From: Clostridia bacterium
GTDB lineage: Bacteria > Bacillota > Clostridia > Oscillospirales > SIG627
Assembly (NCBI GenBank): GCA_017439965.1
Contig: JAFSID010000079.1
Span: 2,035-66,034 of the forward strand
DNA: 64,000 nucleotides
Reading direction: 5' to 3'
In this document: positions 25,842-61,442 of the stretch, piece after piece
Layout: every line of letters begins with the position of its first letter
Numbering within the stretch: position 1 is the stretch's first letter
Notes under the pieces: model-generated
Told to the model about the DNA's origin: nothing
The model's database searches: none
The model's input: the letters and a program-made list of their open reading frames with translations, nothing else
Program-made: the position numbers and the translations under genes

Positions 25842-26975
25842 ATGGCAAACACTAACGAAGAAATGAAACAGGACGCACTTTTTTCAAAGCCCGAGATAGT
25901 TGAGCTTTTGAAAAAAGTAAAACAGAAAAGCTCACTCAATTCTGATGAGATATCCGAGCTGATATTATCACTTGACGTTGAGCTTGACGCCGACCAGTAC
26001 GAAAAGCTTTACGATAAGCTTGAGGCGATAGGCGTCGGTCTGGCGGGTAATTTCGCTGACAACGACGAAATGAGCGAGATTGAGGCAGAGGTGGAAAGCT
26101 TCGGCACTCCCGAGGAAATGGAAAACGCTCTTGCAATAGAGGGTCTTGCCATTGAGGACCACGTGAGAATGTACCTCAAGGAGATTGGTAAGGTACCCCT
26201 TCTTACCGCCGAGAGAGAGGCGGAGCTTGCTCAGAGAATAAGAGAGGGCGACGATTATGCGAAGCAGCAGCTCGTCGAGGCAAACCTCAGACTCGTTGTA
26301 AGCATTGCGAAAAGATATATGGGACGAGGACTTTTCTTCCTCGACCTCATTCAAGAGGGTAACCTCGGTCTTATGAAGGCGGCAGATAAGTTCGACTTCG
26401 AAAAGGGCTATAAATTTTCAACCTACGCAACCTGGTGGATAAGGCAGGCGGTAACCCGTGCAATTGCCGACCAGGCGCGTACCATAAGAATCCCCGTTCA
26501 TATGGTGGAGACCATACACAAGGTGCAGAGAGTATCCCGACAGATACTTCAGGAGAGAGGACACGATGCCTCGGCTGAGGAAATTGCCGAGATGATAAAT
26601 ATGCCTATTGATAAGGTGCGTGACATTCTCAAGGCTGCTCAGGAGCCCGTATCACTTGAAACTCCCATAGGTGAGGAGGAGGACAGCCACCTCGGAGACT
26701 TCATTCCCGACGACGAAGCGCCCGCTCCTGCGGATGCCGCAAGCTATACTCTTCTCCGTGAACAGCTTGCCGAGGTGCTTCACACTCTCACTCCGCGTGA
26801 GGAGAGCGTATTGAAGCTCCGCTTTGGACTTGAGGACGGACAGATGAGGACTCTTGAGGAGGTAGGCAAGGAATTTAATATTACTCGAGAAAGGATTAGA
26901 CAGATAGAGGCAAAGGCTCTCCGCAAGCTTCGTCATCCCAGCCGCTCAAAGAAGCTTCGTGACTATCTGGATTGA
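25842..26975 (+). CDS. rpoD: RNA polymerase primary-type sigma-70 factor
   Basis: 377 aa. Region 2 is [35 protein letters not shown]. Region 3 is present. Region 4.2 is [29 protein letters not shown]. Confidence 0.9.
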
Positions 26976-27678: not shown

Positions 27679-27821
27679 AATTGTGAGAATTGATAAAAAA
27701 ATAGCTTGAAATTGGATATTTTCTCACTTGACATAATGCTTATGTTAGTGTAAAATAAATATGTTTATGATAAGATACAGTCAGTATGCTGTATATTCCC
27801 TGTTTTCAAGGAGGAAAAACA

Positions 27822-47110: not shown

Positions 47111-48146
47111 GAGAATACTTGTCGGAATGTCGGGCGGAATTGACAGCACCTGGGCGGTCAAAAGGCTTATTGAAGAGGGATGGGCGGTTGAAGGCGCGGT
47201 ACTCGATATGCATCCGTCCTCACCCGTTGAGCAGGCAAGACTTGCCGCACACTCACTTGGTATACCTCTTCACGTGATAGACTGTCGCAAGCGCTTCAAG
47301 GAGGCAGTCGAGGACTATTTCGTCAGCGAATACGCCAACGGAAGAACGCCTAATCCGTGCGTTATGTGTAACAGCGAGGTCAAGATAAGGCTTCTTGCGG
47401 ATACTGCGAGAGGGCTTGGCATAGATAGAATATCAACGGGTCATTACGTCAGGATAGTTAAAAATGCTAAGACGGGCAGATTTGAAATGTATTCTGCCGA
47501 GGATAAGAAAAAGGACCAGAGCTATTTTCTCTGGAGAGTGTCTCAGGAGGATTGGGCAATGTTTCATTCGACTCTTGAGAATGCCGAGAAGGAAAGCGTG
47601 AAAAGGGAGCTTGACGAGGGAGAAATATCTCACGACGGTAAGGAAAGTCAGGAGATATGCTTTATTCCCGACGGCTTCAGGACACAGTTTTTGCGAGAGC
47701 GTATGAGCGAGGAGGAAAGGCTTCGCTCGTTTACCGAGGGGGATTTTGTGACCCTTGACGGTAAGACGGTTGGAAGGCATAACGGCCTTGCCAATTATAC
47801 GCTCGGTCAACGAAAGGGACTCGGCATTGCTCTCGGAAGACCTGCGTACGTTTTAAGGCTTGACGGAGCTACAAACCGAGTGACCGTTGGCTTTGAGGAG
47901 GACAACGTCTGTCACGGCTTTACTGTGAGCGGAGTGCACTTCGTGTCACTTGAGGCTTTCGAGGGGGATATTGAGTGCCTCGTGCGTGTAAGACACCGCG
48001 GTATATTGCGTGAGGCAACCGCTACCGTGGTAGGTGACAGGTGTACCGTAAGCCTGAAAAGCCCTGAAAAATCGGTATCCTCGGGGCAATCTGCTGTTTT
48101 TTACGATGATTACGGCAGGGTTCTGTTCGGAGGAGTAATTGACTGA
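47103..48146 (+). CDS. mnmA: tRNA 2-thiouridine(34) synthase MnmA
   Basis: 347 aa. PP-loop [17 protein letters not shown] and DQSYFL. Overlaps rnhA by 8 nt. Confidence 0.9.
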
Positions 48147-48235
48147 GTAAATAACAGTTTTTTAAGCCAGAGTGAAAAATATCAAAGCTTGAATTTGTGT
48201 ATTTTGCACAAAAAATCGGCATAAAAAATAGTATG

Positions 48236-48283
48236 AAAAAAGCCTCGGATTTTCTGTAAAAGGTCAAAATTCGAGGCTTTGTT
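48236..48283 (+). terminator. probable intrinsic terminator after mnmA
   Basis: AGCCTCGGATTTT / AAAATTCGAGGCT, a 13-bp stem with one G-U pair and a 12-nt loop (48241-48278), followed by TTGTT. Confidence 0.55.
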
Positions 48284-48531
48284 ATAAAGTTTTGCTCATA
48301 ATTAGCCTATTTTTAAACTTTATAATTTTGATGAAATATAATCCTTAAAAAAGGCTTTAAAATAAGGTGATTTTGAATTTTTTTAAAAACGAAAATATAT
48401 TATTATTCAACAATTTGTGCACTTTTTTTTAATATAAATTTTACAACCTCGAAAAAACTTAAAATTCTTGTTGAACGGGCGTCGGGTTCTTGTTAAAACA
48501 ACTATAAGAGAGTATGAAAATATAGTCATAC

Positions 48532-48560
48532 TTGACAAAAGAGCCCGTTTATGATATGAT
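48532..48560 (+). promoter_or_regulatory. sigma-A promoter of the 48.7-61.0 kb operon
   Basis: TTGACA (48532-48537), 17 nt, TATGAT (48555-48560). This leaves a ~170-nt leader before the ATG at 48735. Confidence 0.6.
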
Positions 48561-48734
48561 TATTCAGTAAAATTATTCATAATGGGTTTCGCTGGCAACG
48601 TCACTTTAAGAATGCATTTCTGTCAAATTGAACAAATGCCGAAAATCATCGAAAAACCTTGTGTTTTTCGGTTTCTTATGTGCGTGCGCGCGAAATACTC
48701 TTGTGATAGACAAAACCTCAGGAGGGAAAAGTTA

Positions 48735-51700
48735 ATGAGAAAGTCGCTATTTTCGAGATCTCTTGCGTTCTTATTGGCTGTTGTTGTACTTGCGTCCACA
48801 ATGGTATTCGTACCTGTTTCCGCTGCAAGTAAGGCAAGCGCCGAAGAGCTTGAGGAGATCAAGACTTTGCTGAATGCTACTACCTACGACGAGTATTTGG
48901 CAGAGAATGAACAGGTAGGTAAGGGCACCGATAACGTCGTTATCACCGTTGCCGACTATTTACCTGACCAATCTACCGCTAATGCGGAGCTGTATACTGC
49001 TGAGACACTTGAGAGTGTTCTCCGTGAAAAGTATACCGACATTCAGGAAATCACCGAATCTATGACCGAGAACGTTGCAGGCAAGACCGAACAGCACAAC
49101 GTCTTCAACGCTCAGTACGTAGAGGATATGGTTGCTGATGCCGTTGCAGGCATGGAGGGTTACGAGAACGTAATCTATTTGTCTGATGTCGGATATGCGA
49201 CTTTCGGCTTTGAAATAAAGGACGAGGGTCTTTACAACGTTGAAATCGACTATATGTCCACCGAGCCTACCTCGAACAATATTGAGAGAGGTCTTATGAT
49301 TGACGGTCTTTATCCTTTCAAGGAGTCCCGTTCAATCGGCTTCCTCGGTTACTGGGTAGACGAGTACGACACAAGATTTGACGACGATGCAAGAGAGGCC
49401 TTGAGCCTCGGCTATACCTCGACCATTCTTGAGCAGTACGGATTCCTCCGTGATATCAACAACAACGAGGTTAAGCCCGTTAAGGCTGCACGTCCCACCT
49501 GGGAGACCCGTTTCGTATACGATTCCACGGGCTATTATAACAGCCCCTTACAGTACCATCTCACAGAGGGTGAGCATACTCTCGCAGTAAACGGTGTTTC
49601 GGGTAGCATGGTTATCCGCTCCATCCGAGTATACGCTGCAGACGAGGCTCCCACCTACGATGAGGTCGTAGCAGAGTATGAGGCAAATGGCTACAAGTCT
49701 GCTTCCGCTGATTCCGTAATCAAGATTCAGGCAGAGTATCCCAGTGCAACCTCAGACTCCTCAATCTACGCTCTTAACGACCGTACCTCCGCTATCAACG
49801 AGCCACAGGATGCGACCATCGTATACCTCAACTCGATAGGCGGCTCAAAGTGGCAGTCCTACGGTCAGTGGATTGAGTGGCAGATCGAAGTACCCGAGTC
49901 GGGTCTTTACGAGATTGCTACCCGCTTCAAGCAGGACACCATGGCAGGTATGTACGTTACCAGAAAGCTTCTTATCGACGGCGAGCTTCCCTTTAAGGAG
50001 GCAGGTGAGATAACCTTCAATTACGGCTCCAACTGGCAGTCTCAGGCTATCGGCTCTGTAGTTGAAAAGACTACTAAGAACTGGCTTGGCAAGGAAAAAA
50101 TTGAGAAGGAAATAGTTCCTTATCAGTTCTATCTTGAGGAGGGTGTACACACCATCCGCGTTGAAGTAGTTCTCGGTGATATGGCTGACATTCTCCGTCA
50201 GGTTTCCGAGCTTATGGCGGCAATCAACAGCTACTACCTCAAGATACTTATGGTAACGGGTACTAACCCCGACGAATACCGTGACTACGGCTTCACCACT
50301 ATTATGCCCGACGTTATGAACGGTCTCGTTGAAGGCTCCGAGGTGCTTTACAGCATTTCCGCAGAGCTCGAGCGAGTAACCGGTCAAAAGGGTGAGGACT
50401 CGGTACTCCTTGATAAGATTGCACTTCTTCTCGAGCGTATGGGCTCGGATAACGACGAGGTAGCTCCCAACCTTGCTTCCCTTAAGGATAACATAGGTCA
50501 GCTCGGTAACTGGATATCCTCATCCCGTTCACAGCCCCTGACACTTGACTACATACAGATAATGCCAGTTGACACGGCAACTCTTCCCGAGGCTAACGCA
50601 AATATCTGGCAGAGCCTCTGGCACGAGCTTAAGTCGTTCCTTATGAGCTTTGTCAGTGACTATAACAACCTCGGCGCACTCGATATTACCGAGGCTTCCT
50701 CCGATCCCGTTGAGGTTTGGATGACCGCAGGTCGTGACCAGGCACAGATTATCCGTTCAATGCTTACCAAGTTTACCGCGGACACAGGTGTTCCCGTAAA
50801 CCTCAAGCTTGTTGCGGCAGGCTCCCTCCTTCCCGCGACCCTTTCAAATACAGGTCCTGACGTATCCATTCAGAACGCTGCGGCAGACTGTATCAACTAC
50901 GCAATCCGTAATGCAGTTCTTCCTATTAATGATATGGAGGGCTTCGAGGAGGTTAAGGCACGCTTTGCCGAGACCGCAATGATTCCTCTCAGCCTCCACG
51001 ATAAGACCTACGGTATCCCCGAGACCCAGACCTTCCAGATGCTCTTCGTTCGTCTTGACGTATTCGCAGAGCTCGGTATGGAGATACCTGAGACGTGGGA
51101 AGACCTTTACAACCTCCTTCCCGTACTTCAGAGTAACAATCTTGAGGCAGGCTTCCCCACACAGCAGGCAGGCTTGACCCTCCTTATGTATCAGAGAGAC
51201 GAGCCTATGTACAAGGATCCTCTCACTCCCGAGCAGATGGTTGCGGCAGGCTTCAAGGCAGAGGATGCTCCTCTTACCGGCGGTATGCAGATCAACCTCG
51301 ACTCCAACACCTCGCTCGACTGCTTCAAGCAGATGTGCGATATGTTTACCATGTACGGCTTCCCGATTACCTACGACTTTGCAAACCGTTTCAGAACGGG
51401 TGAGATGCCCATCGCGGTTGCAGATTACACAGCATATAACCAGCTTACCATATTCGCTCCCGAAATCAGCGGTCTCTGGAAGCTTACGACACTTCCCGGC
51501 ACTGCTAAGTACGCTCAGGACGAGTACGGCGATTATATCTTCGACGAGGACGGAAACAGAGTTGTTGAAGAAATCAACTACAATGCAGTTTCCACCGTTA
51601 CCGGCGTTATGATGATGAGAGGCGCTAAGGGTGACGAGGAAAGATCCTGGGAGTTTATGAAGTGGTGGACCGACAAGGAGCCCCAGAGTGAGTACGGTAA

Positions 51701-52025
51701 CGAGCTCGTTGCCCTCCTCGGTGCATCCGGTCAGTACGCTACCGCAAACCTCGAAGCGCTTGCTGAACAGCCCTGGAGCTCAGAGGTTATGGCTGCACTT
51801 CAGGATCAGTTCCGCAACCTTGCAGTTACTCCCGAAATGCCCGGTGGATATATCCTTACCCGTTATATCCAGTTCGCATTCCTTGCTGCATACAACGAAA
51901 ATGCTAACCCCGTTGAAGAGCTTCTCGGATACATTGATTCGATTAACAGCGAGCTTTCAAGAAAGAGACAGGAATTTGACCTTCCCATTCTTGAAGACTT
52001 TGAGAATGTCGATATTAATAAGTAA
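48735..52025 (+). CDS. giant extracellular solute-binding protein (family-1 SBP core) with two N-terminal CBM-like beta-sandwich modules
   Basis: Preferred start is ATG 48735, 8 nt after GGAGGG (the track ORF begins at 48582). Signal/anchor MRKSLFSRSLAFLLAVVVLASTMVFVPVSAASKA. Two similar modules (GLYNVEIDYMS...MVIRSIRVYA and GLYEIATRFKQ...VHTIRVEVV). SBP core motifs VEVWMTAGRDQAQI, DKTYGIPETQTFQMLFVRLDVF and ETWEDLYNL. Confidence 0.8.
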   Translation: MRKSLFSRSLAFLLAVVVLASTMVFVPVSAASKASAEELEEIKTLLNATTYDEYLAENEQVGKGTDNVVITVADYLPDQSTANAELYTAETLESVLREKYTDIQEITESMTENVAGKTEQHNVFNAQYVEDMVADAVAGMEGYENVIYLSDVGYATFGFEIKDEGLYNVEIDYMSTEPTSNNIERGLMIDGLYPFKESRSIGFLGYWVDEYDTRFDDDAREALSLGYTSTILEQYGFLRDINNNEVKPVKAARPTWETRFVYDSTGYYNSPLQYHLTEGEHTLAVNGVSGSMVIRSIRVYAADEAPTYDEVVAEYEANGYKSASADSVIKIQAEYPSATSDSSIYALNDRTSAINEPQDATIVYLNSIGGSKWQSYGQWIEWQIEVPESGLYEIATRFKQDTMAGMYVTRKLLIDGELPFKEAGEITFNYGSNWQSQAIGSVVEKTTKNWLGKEKIEKEIVPYQFYLEEGVHTIRVEVVLGDMADILRQVSELMAAINSYYLKILMVTGTNPDEYRDYGFTTIMPDVMNGLVEGSEVLYSISAELERVTGQKGEDSVLLDKIALLLERMGSDNDEVAPNLASLKDNIGQLGNWISSSRSQPLTLDYIQIMPVDTATLPEANANIWQSLWHELKSFLMSFVSDYNNLGALDITEASSDPVEVWMTAGRDQAQIIRSMLTKFTADTGVPVNLKLVAAGSLLPATLSNTGPDVSIQNAAADCINYAIRNAVLPINDMEGFEEVKARFAETAMIPLSLHDKTYGIPETQTFQMLFVRLDVFAELGMEIPETWEDLYNLLPVLQSNNLEAGFPTQQAGLTLLMYQRDEPMYKDPLTPEQMVAAGFKAEDAPLTGGMQINLDSNTSLDCFKQMCDMFTMYGFPITYDFANRFRTGEMPIAVADYTAYNQLTIFAPEISGLWKLTTLPGTAKYAQDEYGDYIFDEDGNRVVEEINYNAVSTVTGVMMMRGAKGDEERSWEFMKWWTDKEPQSEYGNELVALLGASGQYATANLEALAEQPWSSEVMAALQDQFRNLAVTPEMPGGYILTRYIQFAFLAAYNENANPVEELLGYIDSINSELSRKRQEFDLPILEDFENVDINK

Positions 52026-52063
52026 TCCGCAGCAAAAAAATATAATTAAAGGAGAAAAATGCT

Positions 52064-53017
52064 ATGGCAAAAATTAAGTCTGCGGAAGCCAAGACTCAGG
52101 TCGACATCCACAAGATGAGCAAAGCGGCATATACCTGGAGAGAAATGAAGAAGTACAAAACAGGCTACTTCCTCCTCGCTCCCTTCTATATCCTCTTTAC
52201 GATATTTATCATACTTCCCGTATTACTTTCAGTATTCTTCAGCTTTACGATATTCAATATGCTTGAGCCACCTGAATTCGTATTTATGCAGAACTACGTT
52301 CGTCTCTTCCTTGATGACGATATCTTCCTTCTTGCGATTAAGAACACTCTTATCTTCGCAGGTATCACGGGTCCCGTTTCCTACCTGCTCTCACTTCTTT
52401 TCGCATGGTTTATCAATGAGCTTTCCCCCAGAGTAAGAAAGTTCGTAACCCTCGTATTCTACGCACCCAGTATTTCGGGTAACGTCTACATTATCTGGAC
52501 GATACTCTTCTCGGGTGACCAGTACGGTCTTGTAAACGGTTTCCTTATTGATATAGGCCTCATTAACTCGCCTATTCAGTTCTTCACAAACCCCACTTAC
52601 ATTATGCCTCTGGTTATCGTAGTTGCTCTTTGGACGTCACTCGGTACCTCCTTCCTTTCTCTTATTGCGGGCTTCCAGGTCGTTGACAGAACGCTTTATG
52701 AGGCAGCCGCAATCGACGGTGTTAAGAATCGTTGGCAGGAGCTTTGGAGCGTAACCCTTCCTACTATGCGTCCTCAGCTTATGTTCGCAGCGGTTATGTC
52801 CATCACGGGTGCATTCGGCTTCGGCGCTATCATCACCGCGCTTTGCGGATTCCCCAGCCCCGAGTACTGTGCACACACTATTATGCATCACCTTCAGGAT
52901 TACGGTAACACCCGTTTCGAGATGGGTTATGCATCTGCAATCGCAACTCTCTTGTTCTTTATGCAGATCGGTGCTAACGCATTGATCAGAAATCTCTTGT
53001 CAAAGGTAGGTAAGTGA
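52064..53017 (+). CDS. carbohydrate ABC transporter permease (MalF/LplB-like)
   Basis: 317 aa, 6 TM helices. EAA loop LYEAAAIDGVKNRWQELWSVTLPTMRP. Confidence 0.9.
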   Translation: MAKIKSAEAKTQVDIHKMSKAAYTWREMKKYKTGYFLLAPFYILFTIFIILPVLLSVFFSFTIFNMLEPPEFVFMQNYVRLFLDDDIFLLAIKNTLIFAGITGPVSYLLSLLFAWFINELSPRVRKFVTLVFYAPSISGNVYIIWTILFSGDQYGLVNGFLIDIGLINSPIQFFTNPTYIMPLVIVVALWTSLGTSFLSLIAGFQVVDRTLYEAAAIDGVKNRWQELWSVTLPTMRPQLMFAAVMSITGAFGFGAIITALCGFPSPEYCAHTIMHHLQDYGNTRFEMGYASAIATLLFFMQIGANALIRNLLSKVGK

Positions 53018-53018
53018 T

Positions 53019-53891
53019 ATGGCGAAGCTTAGAATTAAAAAGTCAACACATGCGCTCAACCGATCCCTTGCAGGAGACATGAGCGTTACCGGTATACTTG
53101 TTATATTCGGTATATTTATGGCATTCCCGATGGTTTACTCCGTCGTACAGTCCTTAAAGCCCTTGAACGAGCTTTGGATGTTCCCCCCTCGTTTCTATGT
53201 TGTTAACCCCACGTTCCAGAACTTTTCCGATTTGTTCTACCTGATGTCAACGTCATGGGTACCCTTCTCAAGATACATATTTAATACGATATTTATCTCA
53301 GTCTGCGGTACGTTCGGAAACGTTATGCTCGCATCCTTTGCAGCATACGCAATCGCAAAGATTAAGTTCCCCGGACGTAAGACGCTGTTCTCAATCATCG
53401 TATACTCCCTTATGTTTAACTCTACCGTAACCTCTATCACAAACTTCTTGACTATGTCAATGCTCGGTTGGGTTGATACATATCTTTCAATCATCGTTCC
53501 CGCAATTGCAAGCCCGATGGGTCTTTACCTTATGAAGCAGTTTATGGATACCTCCGTTCCCGACTCAGTTCTTGAGTCTGCACGTCTTGACGGTGCATCC
53601 GAATGGAAGATTCTCTGGACTCTCGTAATGCCCATGGTTAAGCCCGCTTGGATGACCCTTATCATCTTCTCCTTCCAGGGACTCTGGAATCAGGGTGCTT
53701 CGGTTTACATCTTCTCCGAGCAGCTCAAGACCTTCCCCTATGCGATAAGCCAGATTATGACGGGCGGTATCGCAAGAGCAGGTGCTTCTGCGGCTTCCGC
53801 GGTTATCACCATGATTGTTCCTATCGTAGTATTCGTATTATCACAGAGCCAGGTTATCCAGACGATGTCCTCGTCGGGTATGAAGGACTAA
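53019..53891 (+). CDS. carbohydrate ABC transporter permease (MalG/LplC-like)
   Basis: 290 aa. EAA loop VLESARLDGASEWKILWTLVMPMVKP. The start is 1 nt after the upstream stop. Confidence 0.9.
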   Translation: MAKLRIKKSTHALNRSLAGDMSVTGILVIFGIFMAFPMVYSVVQSLKPLNELWMFPPRFYVVNPTFQNFSDLFYLMSTSWVPFSRYIFNTIFISVCGTFGNVMLASFAAYAIAKIKFPGRKTLFSIIVYSLMFNSTVTSITNFLTMSMLGWVDTYLSIIVPAIASPMGLYLMKQFMDTSVPDSVLESARLDGASEWKILWTLVMPMVKPAWMTLIIFSFQGLWNQGASVYIFSEQLKTFPYAISQIMTGGIARAGASAASAVITMIVPIVVFVLSQSQVIQTMSSSGMKD

Positions 53892-53909
53892 GAAGGGGAG
53901 GAGTACAAA

Positions 53910-56048
53910 ATGAAATTTACAAAAATATCTTTCGTTGCCCTCTGCCTTGCACTTCTTTTCACACTCAGTGCTCTCGCAGCAGTTCCTTACGCAACGTACA
54001 CCTATGATATCGACGGAAACCTCGCGCTTTCTCCCGATGCATACGTTCCCGACACTCTTATTGACTCAGACGACCTTCTCCTCGGCACAGCGCTCAGCAG
54101 TGCAAAGGACCTCTTCGTTGACAGCCACGAGAACGTTTACATCGTCGATACCAAAAACAACAGAATTCTCGTATGTGACTCGGACTTCAAGGTTCAGTTC
54201 TCTATCGGTCAGTTCTTTAACCAGAACGGCATTATGGACTCCCTTGCCGAGCCCCAGGGCGTATTCGTAAACGAGCTTGAAATCTTTGCGGCAGACACCG
54301 AAAACAACCGTATCGTTGTATTCGACCGTTTCACAGGTGAGTTCAAGCGTATCATCGAGCAGCCCAGATCAGACGTATTCCCCGAGGGAAGCGTTTATAA
54401 GCCCGTAGCGGTAGCGGTTGATACCGCAGGTAGAATTTACGTTGTATCCTCTACCACCACCTACGGTGTTATCTCCATGAACTCCGACGGAACTTTCCTC
54501 GGCTTCCTTGGAGCACAGAAGGTTACTCCTTCTGCCTTTGATATCTTCTGGCGTAACTTCCAGACAAAAGCACAGAGAGAGCAGTCACTCCAGTACGTTC
54601 CTACCGAGTATAACAACATCACGATTGACGCCGACGGCTTTATCTACGTTACGACGTCAACCATTGACGCAGGCTCACAGCAGAGCGCAATCGATACCAA
54701 GAGCAAGTCTGCCGATTACGCTCCCGTTAAGAAGCTTAACCCCAAGGGTGACGACGTTATGAGCCGTAACGGCTTCTATCCTCCCTCCGGTGAGGTTAAG
54801 GTACAGACCGAGGGTCTCGGTGCTGATTCCGATATCACGGGTCCCTCCAAGATTATCGACGTAGCACTCGGTCCCTGCGGAATGTGGTCTATCATCGACG
54901 AAAAGAGAAGTAAGGTCTTTACCTACGACGAGGACGGTAATCTCCTTTATATCTTCGGTGATAAGGGCTCACAGCTCGGTAACATTGCCAACATTCAGTC
55001 GGTAGTTTACAAGGGCACGGATATGCTTATCCTTGATAAGTCCAACGATACCATTACAATTTATAAGCGTACCGAGTACGGAGACACTCTTGCAGCGGCT
55101 CTCAAGAATACTCAGGACAGACTTTACGACCAGGCGGTTGTTCACTGGCAGGAGATCCTCCAGAAGAACTCCAACTTCGATATGGCTTACATCGGTATAG
55201 GTGATAGCCTTTACCGTCAGGGCGATTACGATGAAGCAATGGAAATGTACCAGATGGCATACGCCGTTGAGGACTATTCCAACTCCTTCAAGCAGATTCG
55301 TAAGAACTGGATGGAAAAGTGGATCATCCTCGTCCCCATCGTAGTAATCGCATTCTTCGTTCTCGTTACCAAGTTCTTCAAGTATGCAAACAAGGTTAAC
55401 GTTGCAGGACAGAAGATGAAGGAAAAGAGAAGCTTCAAGGAAACCTTCCTTTACGCCTTCCATATCATCTTCCATCCGTTCGACGGCTTCTGGGATATGA
55501 AGCACGAAAAACGAGGAAGCATGACAGCGGCTCTTACCGTTGTAGCAATTACCATCCTTTCGTTTATTTATAAGTCTGCGGGTACCGCATACATCTTCAA
55601 CCCCGATTCTCAGGGCGTCAGCTACGTTGGAGAAATTCTCGGCGTACTGCTTCCCTACATAGTTTGGGGTATCGCAAACTGGTGTCTTACCACACTGTTC
55701 GACGGTGAAGGTAGAATGAGAGATATCTTTATGGCAACGGGCTATGCAATGCTTCCCATACCCATGATGATTATCCCCACCACCATTTGTTCAAACTTCC
55801 TGCTTCTCGAGGAAGGCTCGATCCTTACCATGATCAACATCATCGGTTACATCTGGGCAGGCTTCCTTATCTTCTTTGCAATGCAGGTAATTCACGACTT
55901 TACACTCGGCAAGAATACTATAATGTGTATAGCAACGATCGTCGGTATGGCATTTATTATGTTCCTTGGCGTCCTCTTCTCAGGACTTCTCGGAAAGATC
56001 GTATCGTTCGTTTACAACATTTACGTCGAGCTCTCGTACAGAATGTAG
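53910..56048 (+). CDS. secreted NHL-repeat beta-propeller - TPR-like - Yip1-domain polytopic membrane fusion protein
   Basis: 712 aa. Signal peptide MKFTKISFVALCLALLFTLSALAA. NHL-type blades (ENVYIVDTKNNRILVCD, IFAADTENNRIVVFD, GRIYVVSS, GFIYVTTS...). TPR-like segment AYIGIGDSLYRQGDYDEAMEMYQMA. One TM helix, then a Yip1-like module (IIFHPFDGFWDMK plus about 5 TM helices). Confidence 0.75.
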   Translation: MKFTKISFVALCLALLFTLSALAAVPYATYTYDIDGNLALSPDAYVPDTLIDSDDLLLGTALSSAKDLFVDSHENVYIVDTKNNRILVCDSDFKVQFSIGQFFNQNGIMDSLAEPQGVFVNELEIFAADTENNRIVVFDRFTGEFKRIIEQPRSDVFPEGSVYKPVAVAVDTAGRIYVVSSTTTYGVISMNSDGTFLGFLGAQKVTPSAFDIFWRNFQTKAQREQSLQYVPTEYNNITIDADGFIYVTTSTIDAGSQQSAIDTKSKSADYAPVKKLNPKGDDVMSRNGFYPPSGEVKVQTEGLGADSDITGPSKIIDVALGPCGMWSIIDEKRSKVFTYDEDGNLLYIFGDKGSQLGNIANIQSVVYKGTDMLILDKSNDTITIYKRTEYGDTLAAALKNTQDRLYDQAVVHWQEILQKNSNFDMAYIGIGDSLYRQGDYDEAMEMYQMAYAVEDYSNSFKQIRKNWMEKWIILVPIVVIAFFVLVTKFFKYANKVNVAGQKMKEKRSFKETFLYAFHIIFHPFDGFWDMKHEKRGSMTAALTVVAITILSFIYKSAGTAYIFNPDSQGVSYVGEILGVLLPYIVWGIANWCLTTLFDGEGRMRDIFMATGYAMLPIPMMIIPTTICSNFLLLEEGSILTMINIIGYIWAGFLIFFAMQVIHDFTLGKNTIMCIATIVGMAFIMFLGVLFSGLLGKIVSFVYNIYVELSYRM

Positions 56049-56066
56049 AATAGGAGGAAAAGTAAA

Positions 56067-58958
56067 ATGAATATGAAAAAGCTCATATCACTCACACTTG
56101 CGCTTATCATGTGTGTGGGCGTTCTCACATCACTTCTTGCCCTTCCTGTTTATGCAGACGAGACTGAGACCGCAACAACCGAAACAACAACCACCGAGAC
56201 GACCGAAGGAGGAGAAGGGGAGACAACAACTACTCCCGCCACCTCCAACAATACGACTCTCTCGGAGGATTACACGACCAAGCAGTATCTTACGGTTGAC
56301 GATAAGCTCGCAACTATGGAGGTTGTTTATTCCAACCACGGTTACGACCTTTACTACCACGCCGAGACAGGTGAGGTAGCCGTTAAGAATACAGCTACCG
56401 GTCAGGTGCTTTCCACCAACCCCTATGACATTTACCACGCTAATAACAAGGCTACCGAAAAGGAAAAGCTTTTAAGCCAGATTATCGTTAACTACGTTGA
56501 CAACGGCGAAGAGAAGCAGATGAACTCCTACGCTTCTGCGGCGCTTCTCTCTCAGATCAAGAAGTTCGATATCCGTAACGGTATACGAGTTGAGTATACC
56601 ATCGGTAAGTCCAGCGCAAAGAGAACCATTCCCTTTATGATTTCCAAGGAGCGCTTCGAGACTATGATTCTCCAGCCCGTCCTTGAGTCAGGCGATACGG
56701 ATGCTTACGGAAAGCTCAAGAGCTACTACGTGCTCCGTGACCCCAACGATCCTTCTCTTACCGAAAACGAGAGACAGACGCTTTACAACACGCTTCCCGC
56801 TACCCGTACGGTCGGTGCTATCTACGTAATGGAGTCCACCGTTGCAGAGGTTGAGCGTGAGCTTAATATGTTTGAAAAGTGGATTCTCTCCTACACCAAG
56901 TACACCTACGACGACGTTCTTAAGGACCACGAGCAGACAAGCTACACCGGAGCAACCAAGACTCCTGCGGTGTTCAGAATGGCGCTTGAGTATTATCTTA
57001 CCGAGGACGGTCTTGAAGTAAGACTTCCCGCCAGCGGTATCCGTTACGACTCGGCTCTCTATTCTCTTACAAACATCCAGATTCTTCCTTTCTTCGGCGC
57101 ATATTCTCAGTCTGAGCAGGGCTTCGTTCTTCTCCCCGACGGTTCGGGTACACTCGTTAGATTTGAGGACTCCTCCGAGTCAAGCGCTACCACCATCACC
57201 TCCAGCCTTTACGGTGCTGACTATTCCTTCTATACGCAGAGCGTAGTTGCTAACATGCAGCCCTGGACTCTTCCCGTATTCGGTATGGTTGAAAACACCA
57301 AGGTAATTACTGAGGTTTGGAACGAGGTTGCGGTTGACGACGGACAGGGCGGTACCATCACCGTTCTCGAACGAAGTGAGGTTGAGTCCTACGAGCCCAA
57401 GGGCTTCCTTGCAGTAGTTACCGAGGGTGACTCTATGATGAGCCTCTCCACTGCATCGGGCGGTCTTCTCAACAAGTATTTCACAGCATTCCCCATTGCA
57501 ACTCCACGTCCCAAGGACACCTATCCTCTTGACGGTATCTCTGTATCGGGCGGAACTGCAACCTGGACCGTAGAGTCACAGAAAAAGTACACGGGCAGCT
57601 ACCGTATCAAGTATTTTATGCTTAACGGTGAAGAAGAGGCTACCTATGTAAATATGGCTAACGTTTACCGTAGCTACCTCGAAAAAACTCAGAATCTCAA
57701 GAAGCTTGAGGCTGACGGAGATGACATTGAGCTTTTCCTTGAAACCTTCGGCGCAATTGATACTACCGAGCGTCGCTTCGGTGTACCCGTTGACGTAAAG
57801 AAGGACCTCACCTCCTTTGAGAATGCAAGGGTTATGATTGACGAGCTTGCAGGCTTCGGAATCAATAACATCTCTCTCAAGTACAGAGGCTGGGCAAACG
57901 GCGGTCTTGATGCTACCGCTCCCACGAAGTTCAAGGTTGAAAAGGTGCTTGGCGGTAAGGACGGCTTGCTCGACCTCATCGAGTACGCTAACTCCAAAAA
58001 CGTCACCGTATTCCCCGACTTTGATTACACCTACATTAACACCTATTCCTCGGGCGACAAGTTCAGCCCCAAGAATGACACCTCCAAGACCGTTGATGAC
58101 CGTGCCGCAATACACAGAACCTACGACCCCGTATTCCAGACCTTCCTCGACGATAATATGCTTCTCATCTCTCCCAACAAGATTTTAGGCTTCTGGAGAG
58201 GCATCAGCGAGAAGTTTGCAGAGCTTGGCACGGGTGCCGTATCCTTCGCAACTCTCGGCTCCGAGCTTAACTCCGATCACAACAAGGACGATTCTCTTAA
58301 CCGTGAAAACGTTAAGGAAAGAATCACTGAGTTTCTTGCTGAGGTTAAGGATGAGGGCTTTGAGGTAATGGTTGAGCAGGGTAACTCCTACACCATTCAG
58401 TATGCGGACAGCATTCTCAACGTTCCGCTTGACGCCAGCGGAAGATACGTAGCAAGTGAATCCGTTCCCTTCTTCGGACTCGTATATCACGGCTACAAGA
58501 ACTTTGCAGGTGACGCTATCAACCTTGCAGGTGACTATACCTACAGCGTTCTTAAGACTATTGAAAACGGTGCAGCACCTTACTTCATCCTTTCGTATCA
58601 GAATGCTAACGCTCTTAAGACCAGCGAAACCTACAGCAAATATTACTCCATCCGTTACGATATCTGGAAGGCAGACCTCGTTGAGACCTATCAGACTCTT
58701 GATATGGTACTCGCGCCCGTCAAGAATTCCGTAATCGTAGGACACGACTTCATCACGTCCCGTCAGGTACTGGTTACCTATGACAACGGAACAACCTTCA
58801 ACATTGATTACAGCACCAACGTGCTCATCGTAAACAATGGTGAAACCGAATACACAATCGACTTTGAATCCGCAACCGTAGTAGAGAATGAAACCGAGTA
58901 TTCCATCAGCGAATACCTTGCAAAAGCAGGTTACACTCCCTATGCGGAGAATAACTGA
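56067..58958 (+). CDS. large secreted protein of unknown function (possibly DUF5696-like) with Thr/Glu-rich linker
   Basis: 963 aa. Signal peptide MNMKKLISLTLALIMCVGVLTSLLALPVYA, followed by ETETATTETTTTETTEGGEGETTTTPATS. No catalytic motif recognised. The family name is recalled from annotations of similar loci and is unverified. Confidence 0.6.
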   Translation: MNMKKLISLTLALIMCVGVLTSLLALPVYADETETATTETTTTETTEGGEGETTTTPATSNNTTLSEDYTTKQYLTVDDKLATMEVVYSNHGYDLYYHAETGEVAVKNTATGQVLSTNPYDIYHANNKATEKEKLLSQIIVNYVDNGEEKQMNSYASAALLSQIKKFDIRNGIRVEYTIGKSSAKRTIPFMISKERFETMILQPVLESGDTDAYGKLKSYYVLRDPNDPSLTENERQTLYNTLPATRTVGAIYVMESTVAEVERELNMFEKWILSYTKYTYDDVLKDHEQTSYTGATKTPAVFRMALEYYLTEDGLEVRLPASGIRYDSALYSLTNIQILPFFGAYSQSEQGFVLLPDGSGTLVRFEDSSESSATTITSSLYGADYSFYTQSVVANMQPWTLPVFGMVENTKVITEVWNEVAVDDGQGGTITVLERSEVESYEPKGFLAVVTEGDSMMSLSTASGGLLNKYFTAFPIATPRPKDTYPLDGISVSGGTATWTVESQKKYTGSYRIKYFMLNGEEEATYVNMANVYRSYLEKTQNLKKLEADGDDIELFLETFGAIDTTERRFGVPVDVKKDLTSFENARVMIDELAGFGINNISLKYRGWANGGLDATAPTKFKVEKVLGGKDGLLDLIEYANSKNVTVFPDFDYTYINTYSSGDKFSPKNDTSKTVDDRAAIHRTYDPVFQTFLDDNMLLISPNKILGFWRGISEKFAELGTGAVSFATLGSELNSDHNKDDSLNRENVKERITEFLAEVKDEGFEVMVEQGNSYTIQYADSILNVPLDASGRYVASESVPFFGLVYHGYKNFAGDAINLAGDYTYSVLKTIENGAAPYFILSYQNANALKTSETYSKYYSIRYDIWKADLVETYQTLDMVLAPVKNSVIVGHDFITSRQVLVTYDNGTTFNIDYSTNVLIVNNGETEYTIDFESATVVENETEYSISEYLAKAGYTPYAENN

Positions 58959-58975
58959 GAAAGGGAGGTAATAAA

Positions 58976-59956
58976 ATGAACGCAACTAAAGCAGACGTAA
59001 AGGTCAAGCCTCAGGCAGCTAAAAAGAAGAAGCCTGCATCACTTGACAAGAAGAAGGCTCATGCGGGCTGGTTCTTCGTACTTCCCTTCGTAGTAATTTT
59101 CGTAGCCGTTTACATTCCGATTATCATAAACTCCATAACCTTCTCCTTCAACGAGCTGGAAATTCAGCAGATGGGTGGTTACGAGCTTATCTTCATCGGT
59201 ATGGACAACTACACCGAAGCGCTCTTCGTTGACTCGGGCTTCGTTCCCACGCTTGTCAGCGGTATGAGACAGCTTATTCTTGACATTCCCGCAATCGTTA
59301 TATTCTCGCTCTTTATGGCTATCCTTCTTAACGAAAAGATGGTCGGCAGAACGGTATTCCGTGCGATATTCTTTATCCCCGTTATTCTTTCGACGGGTAT
59401 TATCGATACTCTTGACCAGTCCAACTCCATGATGAACTATATGCAGAACGCAGGTGAGGAAATGGGCGGTGAGGGTGGCCAGGCTACCGCAAACGAGATT
59501 ATCTCGGCGATTGATATTCAGAAGCTCTTCCAGAATATGAAGATAGGTCAAGGACTTGTAGATTACGTTGTTAACATCGTTAACGACATTTACAACGTCG
59601 TAAACCGTTCAGGTGTACAGATGCTTATCTTCCTCTCGGGTCTTCAGTCTATCAACCCTGCTATCTACGAATCCTGTAAGATAGACGGCGCATCCGCTTG
59701 GGAAACCTTCTGGAAGATAACCTTCCCGATGATAAGCCCGATGATAATGGTTAACACCATTTACACCGTTATCGACTCCTTTACTTCCAAGAGTAATCAG
59801 GTTATGGCGTATATCAGAAACGTATACGACTCAGCCGCAAACGGTCAGGTGCTTGCATCTGCGATGAGCTGGATGTACTTCCTCGTGGTTATTCTTCTTA
59901 TAGCAATAGTCGCAGGACTTCTCTCGATGTACATCTTCTACCAGAGAAGAGATTAA
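58976..59956 (+). CDS. carbohydrate ABC transporter permease (second pair, MalF-like)
   Basis: 326 aa. EAA loop IYESCKIDGASAWETFWKITFPMISP. RBS GGGAGG. Confidence 0.9.
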   Translation: MNATKADVKVKPQAAKKKKPASLDKKKAHAGWFFVLPFVVIFVAVYIPIIINSITFSFNELEIQQMGGYELIFIGMDNYTEALFVDSGFVPTLVSGMRQLILDIPAIVIFSLFMAILLNEKMVGRTVFRAIFFIPVILSTGIIDTLDQSNSMMNYMQNAGEEMGGEGGQATANEIISAIDIQKLFQNMKIGQGLVDYVVNIVNDIYNVVNRSGVQMLIFLSGLQSINPAIYESCKIDGASAWETFWKITFPMISPMIMVNTIYTVIDSFTSKSNQVMAYIRNVYDSAANGQVLASAMSWMYFLVVILLIAIVAGLLSMYIFYQRRD

Positions 59957-59974
59957 GGAAAGGAGGATATAACA

Positions 59975-61006
59975 ATGGACGCACCCAAAATACTTAAAGA
60001 TTCAAAAAACAAAATACGCGTTGACTTTGAGCGTACAAGCCTTGCGGAAAGATTGAAGGCTAAATACCTTTCAACCGCATTTCTTGGCAAGGTAATCTGG
60101 AAAATATTCAGACTTGTACTTCTTGTCGGTATTGCTTATATTATCCTCTTCCCCTTCTTTACGAAGATTGCGGGCTCCTTTATGAGCCGCGAGGACCTTG
60201 TTGACGTTACCGTTCGACTCATTCCCAGATATCCCACCCTTGATACCTACAAGTACATTATCAAGGAAAACTCATACTTCCAGGCGTTTATCAACACCTT
60301 CCTGCTCTCACTTATGTGTGCGGCAGTACAGACCTTTATCTGTGCAATCGTTGGTTACGGTCTTGCGAAGTTTAAGTTCAAGGGTAATAAGCTCGTGTTT
60401 GCAGCGGTTATCTTCACTATGATCGTACCTCACGAGACCATTAAGCTCTCAATGTATATGAACTTCAAGTTCTTCGACGTATTCGGACTTTACGGAATGC
60501 TCAACGATGCACTCCACTTCTCCGAAACGGGAAGCATTGACCTTATCAACTCTTACTGGCCCATGCTTATCCTCTCACTCGGCGGTATCGCCTTTAAGAA
60601 CGGTCTTTACATCTTTATGATGAGACAGTTCTTCAAGGGAGTTCCCGATGAGCTTGAAGAGGCAGCATACATCGACGGTGAGAGCACCTTCGGAACCTTC
60701 TTTAAGATTATTCTTCCCATCTCCATCCCCATGATGATTACGATTTTCATCTTCGCATTCTCATGGCAGTGGACGGATAACTTCTACACAGACCTGTTCT
60801 TCACACAGTCGGGCGCACTTATGATGCCTCGAATCATAACAGTTCCCCCCAGCCTTTCGGATGATTCCTTTGCGGCTCAGGGACTTTATGAGTCCTGTAT
60901 CGAGAACACCTGCGGTCTTCTCGTTATCCTTCCCCTTATCCTGTTCTACTCATACCTCCAGAGATATCTCATCCAAGGTATCGAGCGTTCGGGTATCGTT
61001 GGTTAA
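59975..61006 (+). CDS. carbohydrate ABC transporter permease (second pair, MalG-like, N-terminally extended)
   Basis: 343 aa. EAA loop LEEAAYIDGESTFGTFFKIILPISIP. RBS AAGGAGG. Confidence 0.9.
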   Translation: MDAPKILKDSKNKIRVDFERTSLAERLKAKYLSTAFLGKVIWKIFRLVLLVGIAYIILFPFFTKIAGSFMSREDLVDVTVRLIPRYPTLDTYKYIIKENSYFQAFINTFLLSLMCAAVQTFICAIVGYGLAKFKFKGNKLVFAAVIFTMIVPHETIKLSMYMNFKFFDVFGLYGMLNDALHFSETGSIDLINSYWPMLILSLGGIAFKNGLYIFMMRQFFKGVPDELEEAAYIDGESTFGTFFKIILPISIPMMITIFIFAFSWQWTDNFYTDLFFTQSGALMMPRIITVPPSLSDDSFAAQGLYESCIENTCGLLVILPLILFYSYLQRYLIQGIERSGIVG

Positions 61007-61022
61007 TCCAAAGAAGCTTTAT

Positions 61023-61052
61023 AAAAGCCTCCGCTGTTTGCGGAGGCTTTTT
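61023..61052 (+). terminator. intrinsic terminator ending the operon
   Basis: GCCTCCGC-tgttt-GCGGAGGC flanked by AAAA and TTTTT. Confidence 0.85.
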
Positions 61053-61358
61053 GCTTGTATACTAATGAATTGCATTTAGATTAAGATAGGTGAGAATTGC
61101 CGACGGCTACAACTTGTAAAAAAGGAAAGATAATATATAAAATTCATACTTTTGTGCGTATAAAAAGCTCCTGACTTATTGTATAATTATAACGCAATAT
61201 AATTATTTATAGGTTATATATAAGTCGATGCCGTTACAAAAAGCAGATTAAGCCTACTGTCTTTTTGAATATTTGAGGTTTCACCACTGCTTATTGGTAA
61301 TATTGCACAATCTTATCTGTGCAAATAAACGAATTTGATACAAATTGAAATAATTCCA

Positions 61359-61387
61359 TTGACTTTAATAAATAACGGGTATATAAT
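61359..61387 (+). promoter_or_regulatory. sigma-A promoter of the 61443 gene
   Basis: TTGACT (61359-61364), 17 nt, TATAAT (61382-61387). Confidence 0.6.
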
Positions 61388-61442
61388 TATATTATCCAAA
61401 GGTGTCAGTATCACCTTGAATATTTTATAGGAGGAAAAAACT

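What the first reader, a model, noticed from the sequence alone, without database searches (positions are those of the whole stretch)
48532..61052. 12.5-kb single operon: giant CBM-fused binding protein, two complete ABC permease pairs, an NHL-TPR-Yip1 membrane protein and a 963-aa secreted unknown, with no ATPase
Seen: one near-consensus promoter (48532-48560) and one strong terminator (61023-61052). Between them lie seven same-strand genes separated by only 1-38 nt, each with its own AGGAGG-type RBS. All four membrane subunits carry EAA loops, so there are two full heterodimeric translocators (52064-53891 and 58976-61006). Only one recognisable binding protein is present, and no Walker-A nucleotide-binding gene is found anywhere in the window. 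The two permease pairs bracket two non-transporter genes. Established: family-1 carbohydrate importers consist of one SBP plus two permeases, and in Firmicutes they often borrow a shared MsmK/MsmX-type ATPase. Inference: the fixed embedding of a surface beta-propeller/Yip1 membrane protein and a large secreted protein between two translocators suggests a dedicated multi-component envelope machine. Possible roles are capture, processing and uptake of a polymeric substrate, or sensing and trafficking of its products, rather than simple sugar import. I know of no characterised homolog for the non-transporter parts. From memory, similar gene sets (annotated YIP1 family plus DUF5696) recur in other Firmicutes, which would make this a conserved but unstudied system.
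Basis: partly seen in the sequence, partly recalled or inferred. Interest (0 to 1): 0.72.

Follow-up and report, generated by a model that had tools for sequence, protein, structure and literature searches.

The report
Conserved Firmicute glycan-capture ABC cassette
This is a real seven-gene operon, kept in the same order across hundreds of gut, soil and marine Firmicutes. It joins two sugar-type ABC membrane channels to three unstudied surface proteins, one of which I show has the fold of a known family of sugar-cleaving enzymes, so it is most likely an uncharacterised machine for capturing and importing complex carbohydrates.

Summary
The anatomy is real. Seven co-directional genes (48735-61006) have gaps of 1-38 nt, each with an RBS. 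They lie between a near-consensus promoter (48532-48560) and a strong terminator (61023-61052). All four permeases have EAA loops, and no importer ATPase is present. One claim is wrong: the window does hold Walker-A genes (ABC-F, MnmE, ComM-like), though none is a transporter ATPase. The same gene order occurs in all 80 genome loci recovered and in 11 further contexts, including cultured Bacilli. This rules out two accidentally adjacent importers. The "963-aa unknown" (DUF5696) is a remote homologue of GH129/GH101 alpha-glycosidases (Foldseek E 3e-24; hhalign 96%), but the canonical catalytic positions are not conserved. The giant binding protein carries two CBM6/35-like beta-sandwiches, a helical bundle and a MalE-like domain, and it lacks a lipid anchor. 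In Bacilli the cassette gains lipoprotein SBPs, AraC-type regulators and variable glycoside hydrolases, as carbohydrate-utilisation loci do. Best reading (0.55): a modular unit for glycan capture, processing and import, powered by a shared MsmX-type ATPase and scaffolded by the NHL-TPR-Yip1 protein. Substrate and chemistry are unknown. It is a new variant of a known kind; no paper in the library mentions DUF5696.

The parts
48532..48560 (+). Sigma-A type promoter (TTGACA, 17 nt, TGnTATGAT)
   Evidence: It scores 11/12 with a TG extension. The -35 block and its upstream flank (ATATnnCATAC-TTGACAAA) are conserved in orthologous loci L002-L010, L081 and L084.
48561..48734 (+). 5' leader of about 175 nt with a hairpin plus U run at 48648-48672
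   Evidence: Read from the sequence and listed by the terminator scan. The first ~25 nt are conserved in relatives whose proteins are 60-70% identical. There is no Rfam match. Its function is unknown.
48735..52025 (+). Giant secreted binding protein (1096 aa). Signal peptide without a lipobox; two CBM6/35-like beta-sandwiches (aa 146-300 and 329-479); four-helix bundle (aa 483-598); MalE-like solute-binding domain (aa 659-1089)
   Evidence: Pfam SBP_bac_8. AF2 model with pLDDT 86.7. The Foldseek best matches are oligosaccharide SBPs with TM 0.7-0.82. A CBM_35 hit sits at threshold in homologue P0142. 112 of 120 homologues have no lipobox.
52064..53017 (+). Permease P1a (317 aa, UgpA/MalF-like), EAA loop at aa 213
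53019..53891 (+). Permease P1b (290 aa, UgpE/MalG-like), EAA loop at aa 186
53910..56048 (+). NHL beta-propeller (aa ~30-390, outside), TPR (aa ~392-460), TM helix (aa 472-490) and Yip1 multi-span membrane domain (aa 518-686)
   Evidence: Pfam Yip1 58.5 bits, NHL and TPR. PDB sequence hits to the PknD, TRIM71 and Brat NHL propellers and to consensus TPRs. Hydropathy. In four Bacilli loci it is split into two genes just after the TM helix.
56067..58958 (+). DUF5696 protein (963 aa): signal peptide, T/E-rich linker, N-terminal beta-sandwich domain (aa ~70-520), (beta/alpha)8 barrel (aa ~527-885) and C-terminal beta-sandwich (aa ~890-946). It has a GH129/GH101-like fold
   Evidence: Pfam DUF5696 E 1e-154. 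AF2 pLDDT 85, pTM 0.80. Foldseek: 5opq E 3e-24, 5wzn E 7e-21, TM 0.67-0.74 normalised to the target. hmmsearch against NagBb E 0.0024. hhalign probability 94.6-96.3%.
58976..59956 (+). Permease P2a (326 aa, MalF-like) with an insert of ~80 aa (aa 145-225) that I take to be extracytoplasmic; EAA variant at aa 232
59975..61006 (+). Permease P2b (343 aa, MalG/GlcU-like), EAA loop at aa 229
61023..61052 (+). Intrinsic terminator (12-bp stem, 5-nt loop, U run)
   Evidence: Sequence. RNA fold dG -22.5 kcal/mol, z -5.16, with 0 of 200 shuffles folding as well.

Best explanation
The seven genes form one transcription unit. It encodes a self-contained envelope module for capturing, processing and importing a complex glycan.

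Three products are exported:
1. A giant binding protein that lacks a lipid anchor. Its two CBM6/35-like modules would hold a polymer, and its MalE-like domain would deliver oligosaccharide to a translocator.
2. A GH129/GH101-fold protein (DUF5696), which would cut or remodel the captured, probably alpha-linked, glycan or glycoconjugate.
3. A membrane protein with an extracellular NHL propeller and TPR stalk fused to a Yip1 domain. I infer that it acts as the membrane scaffold holding the anchor-less proteins over the transporters, by analogy with the Yip1 protein YknW, which modulates assembly of the YknXYZ ABC complex.

Two MalFG-type heterodimeric translocators take up the products. Both would be energised by a shared MsmX/MsmK-type ATPase encoded elsewhere.

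Shown here: operon anatomy, domain identities, folds, export signals, conservation of the gene order, and the carbohydrate-locus context in Bacilli.
Inferred: enzymatic activity, substrate, physical assembly, and which binding protein serves which translocator.
For: Operon anatomy.

Conservation:
- The gene order is identical in 72 complete and 8 contig-truncated genome loci, down to 37% DUF5696 identity.
- It is also found in 11 annotated contexts from Clostridia MAGs and from cultured Gracilibacillus, Lederbergia, Bacillus and Paenibacillus.

Bacilli context:
- The core is preceded by 1-2 ordinary lipoprotein SBPs and flanked by AraC, GntR-LacI or response-regulator regulators.
- Neighbouring glycosidases vary: GH20, GH30, GH76+GH125, GH130+epimerase. 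This is the pattern of Gram-positive carbohydrate-utilisation loci.
- Several genomes carry two paralogous DUF5696 proteins, for example P. spongiae, where both sit in full cassettes.

DUF5696:
- Confident model. The best structural matches are GH129-like DagB and GH129 NagBb, followed by GH101, GH36 and GH13.
- Profile homology to NagBb: E 0.0024, hhalign 94.6-96.3%.

Binding protein: MalE-like domain plus CBM-like modules.

Divergence: the exported proteins diverge about twice as fast as the permeases (median relative score 0.31-0.32 against 0.61-0.70), as expected for substrate-contacting parts. SBP, P1a, P1b and Yip1 scores co-vary (rho 0.66-0.88).

Anchoring: the large SBP lacks a lipobox in 112 of 120 homologues and in 0 of 8 Bacilli loci, whereas 9 of 10 neighbouring small SBPs have one. 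It therefore needs another tether.

Literature precedents:
- A Yip1 protein assembling an ABC complex: PMC4887032.
- Shared ATPases: PMC7658222.
- Shifted catalytic residues within GH129-like enzymes: PMC5698469.
Against: - The residues aligned with the NagBb nucleophile and acid/base are not conserved. Column 733 reads D/E/S/A/Y and column 770 reads D/N/S/E/T. The GH13-like 'HD' motif is an invariant 'HG'.
- Three alignments place the nucleophile at three different positions. Hydrolytic activity is therefore unproven.
- In Clostridia, including this window, the cassette has no regulator, no catabolic enzyme and no second SBP nearby. It sits among housekeeping genes. That is atypical for a nutrient-acquisition locus.
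- One SBP-like protein for two translocators is unexplained.
- No ATPase was identified.
- Internal promoter-like sites exist, for example 55033-55060, so a single transcript is not proven.
Confidence: 0.55

Rival explanations
1. Envelope housekeeping rather than foraging. In Clostridia the cassette would recycle or remodel a polymer of the cell's own surface (secondary cell-wall polysaccharide, S-layer glycan or capsule). The GH129-like protein would trim it and the translocators would salvage the fragments.
For: - In Clostridia the cassette sits next to iscS-nifU-mnmA, RNase H, mfd, pnp, uvrA, lexA or spoVA genes, with no regulator or GH nearby.
- A near-consensus promoter is conserved across distant relatives with no recognisable operator or cre site.
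- The window encodes two ~1480-aa SLH proteins, so this organism probably has an S-layer attached to a secondary cell-wall polymer.
Against: - In Bacilli the same core lies under AraC-type or two-component regulators, next to GH20, GH30, GH76, GH125 or GH130, and some genomes carry more than one copy. That fits exogenous substrates.
- The exported parts diverge fast.
Confidence: 0.2
2. DUF5696 is a catalytically dead GH-fold protein. It would act as a lectin or adaptor, and the system would bind or sense a glycan (or hand it to the transporters) without cleaving it.
For: - The canonical GH129 nucleophile and acid/base columns are variable. The ortholog P0033, in an identical cassette, has Ser and Thr at those positions. 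The 'HD' motif reads 'HG'.
Against: - Many polar residues at the predicted barrel top are invariant or nearly so across Clostridia and Bacilli: D358 in a PDGSG loop, D737, R746, N611, N773, N819, E833. This suggests a preserved active site.
- GH129-like DagB already shows that catalytic residues move within this superfamily and that an N-domain Asp contributes (PMC5698469).
Confidence: 0.15
3. Two ordinary, independent sugar importers that merely lie side by side with two unrelated genes between them.
For: - Each permease pair on its own looks like a standard CUT1-type MalFG heterodimer.
- P2 scores co-vary less with the SBP than P1 scores do.
- Bacilli loci have a second, ordinary SBP.
Against: - The order and orientation of all seven genes are invariant in every locus examined, across two classes of Firmicutes and down to ~26-30% DUF5696 identity.
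- The gaps are 1-38 nt, with no internal terminator of comparable strength.
Confidence: 0.03

Closest known systems
GH129 / GH129-like / GH101 alpha-glycosidases (NagBb of Bifidobacterium bifidum; DagB of Zobellia galactanivorans; EngBF, SpGH101)
   Same: They share the three-domain architecture: N-terminal beta-sandwich, (beta/alpha)8 barrel and C-terminal Ig-like sandwich. Foldseek gives E 3e-24 to 1e-11 with TM 0.67-0.74 against the GH129 targets. They share the motifs GWAxxG, VxH and NGxxPY. In bifidobacteria, GH101 works upstream of an ABC importer (GNB/LNB; its binding protein GltA is among the structural matches of the SBP domain).
   Different: Sequence identity is about 10-12%. A single-sequence search is not significant (E 0.59). 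The NagBb D435/E478 equivalents are not conserved, and the Asp of the 'HD' motif is Gly. There is a large helical insertion in the N-domain. The protein is always embedded between two permease pairs. No activity is known.
CUT1-type (MalEFGK2-like) carbohydrate ABC importers of Firmicutes with a shared MsmX/MsmK ATPase
   Same: MalE-like binding domain, MalF-like plus MalG-like permeases with EAA loops, and no ATPase gene in the operon. Shared 'multitask' ATPases are documented (PMC7658222).
   Different: Two translocators sit in one operon. The binding domain is the C-terminal third of an ~1100-aa protein with CBM-like and helical modules and no lipid anchor. A Yip1 membrane protein and a GH-fold protein are fixed components.
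YknWXYZ of Bacillus subtilis (Yip1-family YknW plus an ABC transporter)
   Same: A bacterial Yip1-domain membrane protein encoded with, and needed for assembly of, an ABC transporter complex (PMC4887032).
   Different: YknYZ is a MacB-type exporter with a membrane-fusion protein. YknW has no extracellular NHL/TPR domain. Here the partners are type I importer permeases.
Bacteroidota Sus-like polysaccharide utilisation systems (comparison from my own knowledge; not tested here)
   Same: The logic of co-encoded surface glycan binder, surface enzyme and dedicated transporter.
   Different: The components are entirely different (TonB-dependent SusC/SusD in an outer membrane against ABC translocators in a single membrane). 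There is no homology.

Membership tests
Pfam DUF5696 (PF18952) | Score above the curated gathering threshold | tested here: met
   516.9 bits against a cut-off of 25.6, E 1e-154.
Glycoside hydrolase family GH129 (NagBb type) | Significant sequence similarity to family members | tested here: inconclusive
   Single sequence: E 0.59. Profile: E 0.0024. hhalign probability 94.6-96.3%. This indicates remote homology, not family-level similarity.
Glycoside hydrolase family GH129 (NagBb type) | Three-domain fold with a central (beta/alpha)8 barrel | tested here: met
   AF2 pLDDT 85. Foldseek gives TM 0.71-0.74 (normalised to the target) against NagBb and 0.67 against DagB.
Glycoside hydrolase family GH129 (NagBb type) | Conserved catalytic Asp nucleophile (D435) and Glu acid/base (E478) | tested here: not met
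   The aligned columns are variable: 733 is D33/E12/S3/A2/Y2 and 770 is D39/N5/S5/E4/T1. Three alignments disagree on the position. 'HD' reads 'HG'.
Glycoside hydrolase family GH129 (NagBb type) | Demonstrated glycosidase activity | not testable with these tools
   This needs biochemistry.
Type I ABC importer, carbohydrate uptake (CUT1) class | Two BPD_transp_1 permeases with EAA loops forming a MalF/MalG-like heterodimer | tested here: met
   Met twice. P1a/P1b and P2a/P2b all match Pfam, and their best NCBIfam matches are the UgpA/MalF and UgpE/MalG/GlcU types. EAA motifs are present.
Type I ABC importer, carbohydrate uptake (CUT1) class | Cognate extracellular solute-binding protein | tested here: met
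   SBP_bac_8 E 5e-14. MalE-like fold, TM up to 0.82. Only one is present for two translocators, and it has no lipid anchor.
Type I ABC importer, carbohydrate uptake (CUT1) class | ABC ATPase (NBD) subunit | tested here: not met
   None in the operon or in the window, where the only ABC ATPase is ABC-F. None is adjacent in 81 related loci. It is presumed to be encoded elsewhere (MsmX type); this could not be checked because the genome is not available.
Yip1 domain family (PF04893) | Score above the gathering threshold and a multi-span membrane domain | tested here: met
   58.5 bits against 28.6, covering aa 518-686. Hydrophobic segments are predicted in this region.
CBM35 / CBM6 carbohydrate-binding modules | Pfam match above threshold, and sugar binding | tested here: inconclusive
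   The window protein gives only a sub-threshold Golvesin_C hit. Homologue P0142 reaches CBM_35 at 28.9 bits against a cut-off of 28. The AF2 model shows two beta-sandwiches. Binding was not tested.

The most novel reading that the evidence does not exclude
The cassette encodes a stable Gram-positive 'utilisome'. In this reading the NHL-TPR-Yip1 protein physically bridges two ABC translocators in the membrane. Through its TPR stalk and propeller it tethers the anchor-less giant binding protein and a GH129-fold enzyme that uses a non-canonical catalytic apparatus. Capture, cleavage and two-channel import of a glycan would then occur in one supercomplex. This would give bacterial Yip1 domains a general role as organisers of ABC transporter assemblies.
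Probability: 0.25. Interest if true: 0.8.

Novelty: new variant of a known kind. Interest (0 to 1): 0.6.

Why it matters
DUF5696 is a large family: 5,957 clusters at 50% identity, of which 3,555 have E<=1e-30. In all 91 distinct loci examined here it comes with the same six partners. The hosts include abundant uncultured rumen and gut Oscillospiraceae-type Clostridia and many cultured Paenibacillus and Bacillus strains, yet no paper in the searched library mentions it.

Assigning it to the GH129/GH101 superfamily gives a concrete biochemical hypothesis. The cultured hosts (Gracilibacillus marinus, Paenibacillus spongiae, P. polysaccharolyticus, Lederbergia citrea) make it directly testable.

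If the scaffold idea holds, it would:
- explain how Gram-positive bacteria retain non-lipidated binding proteins;
- give bacterial Yip1 domains a function;
- define a Firmicute counterpart of Sus-like glycan-harvesting complexes, which is relevant to fibre and host-glycan turnover in guts.

Tried and rejected
- Rfam on 48100-61500 at E<=1: no match, so the leader is not a known riboswitch.
- cre (CcpA) consensus in the window: none found.
- PADLOC defence models for the three non-transporter proteins: none found.
- Literature searches: 'DUF5696' gave 0 papers. 'YIP1 family protein' and Yip1 + ABC + GH gave nothing on this system apart from YknW. The Naumoff/GHL search gave no link.
- Pfam on the N-terminal 620 aa of the binding protein at E<=10: only noise plus a sub-threshold Golvesin_C hit.
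- Foldseek on the whole binding-protein model was dominated by the MalE-like domain.
- Mapping of the NagBb catalytic residues failed. phmmer, hhalign with A1 and hhalign with A4 place D435 opposite S726, opposite E733, and in a gap after T729 respectively.
- 'Two adjacent ordinary importers' is rejected on conservation of gene order.
- A defence system or mobile element is rejected: there are no matches, GC equals the window average (0.477 against 0.470), and the flanks are housekeeping genes.

Full report
**1. Observation**

The region holds seven + strand ORFs:
- 48582/48735-52025
- 52064-53017
- 53019-53891
- 53910-56048
- 56067-58958
- 58976-59956
- 59975-61006

The gaps between them are 38, 1, 18, 18, 17 and 18 nt. 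Each start has a Shine-Dalgarno-like sequence upstream.

The promoter at 48532-48560 (TTGACA, 17 nt, TATGAT, with a TG extension) matches 11 of 12 positions. This is jointly the best match in the 18 kb scanned. Promoter-like hits as a class are no commoner than in shuffled sequence (26 against 23 expected). This site matters because it is conserved in orthologous loci.

The terminator at 61023-61052 was missed by the scanner. It folds into a 12-bp stem at -22.5 kcal/mol, with z -5.2.

Pfam gives the following:
- SBP_bac_8 in gene 1;
- BPD_transp_1 in the four permeases;
- NHL, TPR and Yip1 in gene 4;
- DUF5696 (E 1e-154) in gene 5.

All four permeases have EAA loops.

There are two corrections. 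First, gene 1 almost certainly starts at 48735, where there is an AGGAGGG RBS, a signal peptide follows, and the start is conserved in relatives. This leaves a 175-nt leader. Second, the window does contain Walker-A genes: an ABC-F protein at 40912-42792, MnmE, and a ComM-like ATPase. None of these is an importer ATPase.

**2. The set is a fixed unit**

A scan of one genome per species found at least 578 species with a DUF5696 relative. The 80 best loci were kept. I assigned every ORF in these loci to its best-matching window protein. The order SBP-P1a-P1b-Yip1-DUF5696-P2a-P2b appears on one strand in all of them. The eight incomplete cases are cut by contig ends.

The closest relative is a Clostridia MAG from water-buffalo caecum, at 97% identity. 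Most of the others are Oscillospiraceae-type gut and rumen MAGs.

Flanking genes are variable and housekeeping: iscS, nifU, mnmA, RNase H, mfd, pnp, uvrA, lexA, spoVA. No regulator, glycosidase or ATPase is conserved next to the cassette in Clostridia.

Searches with the binding protein, and with a Gracilibacillus DUF5696, showed the same core in cultured Bacilli. In those genomes:
- One or two ordinary ~450-aa SBPs precede the core.
- In four loci the NHL part and the Yip1 part are separate genes.
- Regulators flank the set (AraC, GntR-LacI, response regulator-AraC).
- Neighbouring enzymes vary: GH20; GH30; GH125 upstream with GH76 downstream; GH130 plus an epimerase.
- Several genomes carry two DUF5696 paralogues. 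In P. spongiae both sit in full cassettes.

This is how Gram-positive carbohydrate-utilisation loci behave.

**3. The 963-aa protein**

An AlphaFold2 model built from 54 homologues is confident, with pLDDT 85 and pTM 0.80. It shows a signal peptide, a disordered T/E-rich linker, a large N-terminal beta-sandwich domain, a (beta/alpha)8 barrel and a C-terminal beta-sandwich.

The best Foldseek matches in the PDB are as follows:

| Target | E-value | TM (normalised to target) |
|---|---|---|
| DagB, GH129-like 3,6-anhydro-D-galactosidase (5opq) | 3e-24 | 0.67 |
| NagBb, GH129 alpha-N-acetylgalactosaminidase (5wzn) | 7e-21 | 0.73 |
| GH101, GH36 and GH13 enzymes | weaker | lower |

Sequence evidence agrees but is weak:
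- phmmer E 0.59;
- profile search E 0.0024;
- hhalign probability 94.6% with the Clostridial profile;
- hhalign probability 96.3% with a profile that adds Bacilli.

The catalytic picture is unresolved. The three alignments put the NagBb nucleophile D435 opposite S726, opposite E733, or in a gap after T729. None of these columns is an invariant acid. The column opposite E478 reads D/N/S/E/T. The GH13-like 'HD' motif is an invariant 'HG'.

Residues conserved across both classes are D358 (in a PDGSG loop of the N-domain), R746, N819 and E833. D737, N611, D651, S726 and N773 are nearly invariant.

The literature shows that catalytic residues already differ between NagBb and DagB, and that an N-domain Asp is essential in DagB (PMC5698469). 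A relocated active site is therefore plausible, but it is not shown.

The family is large: 5,957 clusters at 50% identity, some of them up to ~2,500 aa.

**4. The binding protein**

The AF2 model (pLDDT 86.7) has these parts:
- a signal peptide;
- a helical region;
- two beta-sandwiches (aa 146-300 and 329-479);
- a four-helix bundle (aa 483-598);
- a MalE-like domain (aa 659-1089).

The closest structures to the MalE-like domain are oligosaccharide-binding proteins, with TM 0.7-0.82 (sequence hits).

The sandwiches carry G-x-Y-x-[IL]-x-x-R-[YF] and [IL]-D-G motifs. From my own knowledge these are typical of CBM6/35. One homologue reaches the CBM_35 threshold. 'CBM-fused' is therefore reasonable but unproven.

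The large protein is almost never a lipoprotein: 112 of 120 homologues, and all 8 Bacilli loci, lack a lipobox. By contrast, 9 of 10 neighbouring small SBPs have a canonical lipobox. In a bacterium with a single membrane, an anchor-less binding protein needs another tether.

**5. The Yip1 protein**

It has a signal peptide, an extracellular six-bladed-type NHL propeller, a TPR stalk, one TM helix and then the Yip1 multi-span domain. Its PDB sequence hits include the PknD sensor domain.

The only studied bacterial precedent I found is YknW, a Yip1 protein that modulates assembly of the YknXYZ ABC complex (PMC4887032).

**6. Synthesis**

The most economical reading is a modular glycan capture, processing and import unit:
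- CBM-like modules and the propeller hold a polymer.
- The GH129-fold protein cuts or remodels it.
- The MalE-like domain (plus lipoprotein SBPs in Bacilli) feeds two MalFG-type translocators.
- A shared MsmX-type ATPase powers them (PMC7658222).
- The Yip1 protein organises the assembly and may tether the anchor-less proteins.

Two observations fit this. The exported proteins diverge about twice as fast as the membrane parts. The SBP, P1 and Yip1 scores co-vary (rho 0.66-0.88), while P2 is less coupled to them.

Weak points:
- Catalysis is unproven.
- The substrate is unknown.
- This clade has one SBP for two translocators.
- The Clostridial context is housekeeping and has no regulator. This keeps an envelope-recycling role alive (confidence 0.2).

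A non-catalytic DUF5696 is possible (0.15). Two accidental neighbours is effectively excluded (0.03).

**7. Novelty**

The kind is known: an ABC-based carbohydrate locus with a surface enzyme. The fixed architecture is not described in the searched literature. That architecture comprises two translocators, a giant non-lipidated CBM-SBP, an NHL-TPR-Yip1 protein and a GH129-like DUF. I rate it a new variant of a known kind, with interest 0.6. The step that would raise it is demonstration of a physical supercomplex or of a new glycosidase mechanism.

Noticed in passing
window 48517-48590 and 48640-48680: The promoter flank (AAAATATrGTCATAC before the -35) and the first ~25 nt of the transcript (CAGTAAnAATAyTCAnAnTGGG) are conserved in loci whose proteins are only 60-70% identical. 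The 13-mer CATACTTGACAAA also precedes the cassette in two distant MAGs (L081, L084). In the closest relatives the 175-nt leader holds a hairpin plus U run that looks like an attenuator. There is no Rfam or cre match.
   Followed up: partly
window 24684-25361 and 25842-26975: A 225-aa ORF with only sigma-70 regions 1.1, 1.2 and 2 lies just upstream of a complete 377-aa RpoD-type sigma factor. It looks like a partial duplication or a split or interrupted rpoD.
   Followed up: no
window 6472-10929 and 11112-15554 (- strand): Two tandem paralogous proteins of ~1480 aa whose only Pfam match is to SLH domains near residue 486-528. They are probably S-layer or cell-surface proteins.
   Followed up: no
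window 27786-29933 (+): A 715-aa ORF with no Pfam match at E<=0.01.
   Followed up: no
window 61359-64000 (+): A separate near-consensus promoter (61359-61387, 11/12) is followed by an open frame from 61443 that runs off the window (>852 aa). It has a signal peptide, is rich in A/T/V/G, and has no significant Pfam match. It is not part of the cassette in other genomes.
   Followed up: partly
L082, L087-L092 (Bacilli loci): In Bacilli the cassette has 1-2 extra small lipoprotein SBPs upstream of the giant one. In L082, L089, L090 and L091 the NHL-TPR-TM part and the Yip1 part are separate, slightly overlapping genes, which shows that the fusion is not obligatory.
   Followed up: partly
L002-L081, all seven genes: Across 74 loci, similarity scores of SBP, P1a, P1b and Yip1 co-vary strongly (Spearman 0.66-0.88). 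P2a and P2b co-vary less with them (0.23-0.69). This hints that the giant SBP serves the first translocator and that the second has a different partner.
   Followed up: partly
DUF5696 family (representatives P0361-P0508): Many family members are 1,300-2,500 aa long, with the DUF5696 region at the N-terminus followed by long extra C-terminal regions of unknown content.
   Followed up: no
window 40912-42792 (+): An ABC-F type ATPase (two ABC_tran domains, ABC_tran_Xtn and a C-terminal domain). This is the only ABC ATPase in the window and is not a transporter subunit.
   Followed up: yes
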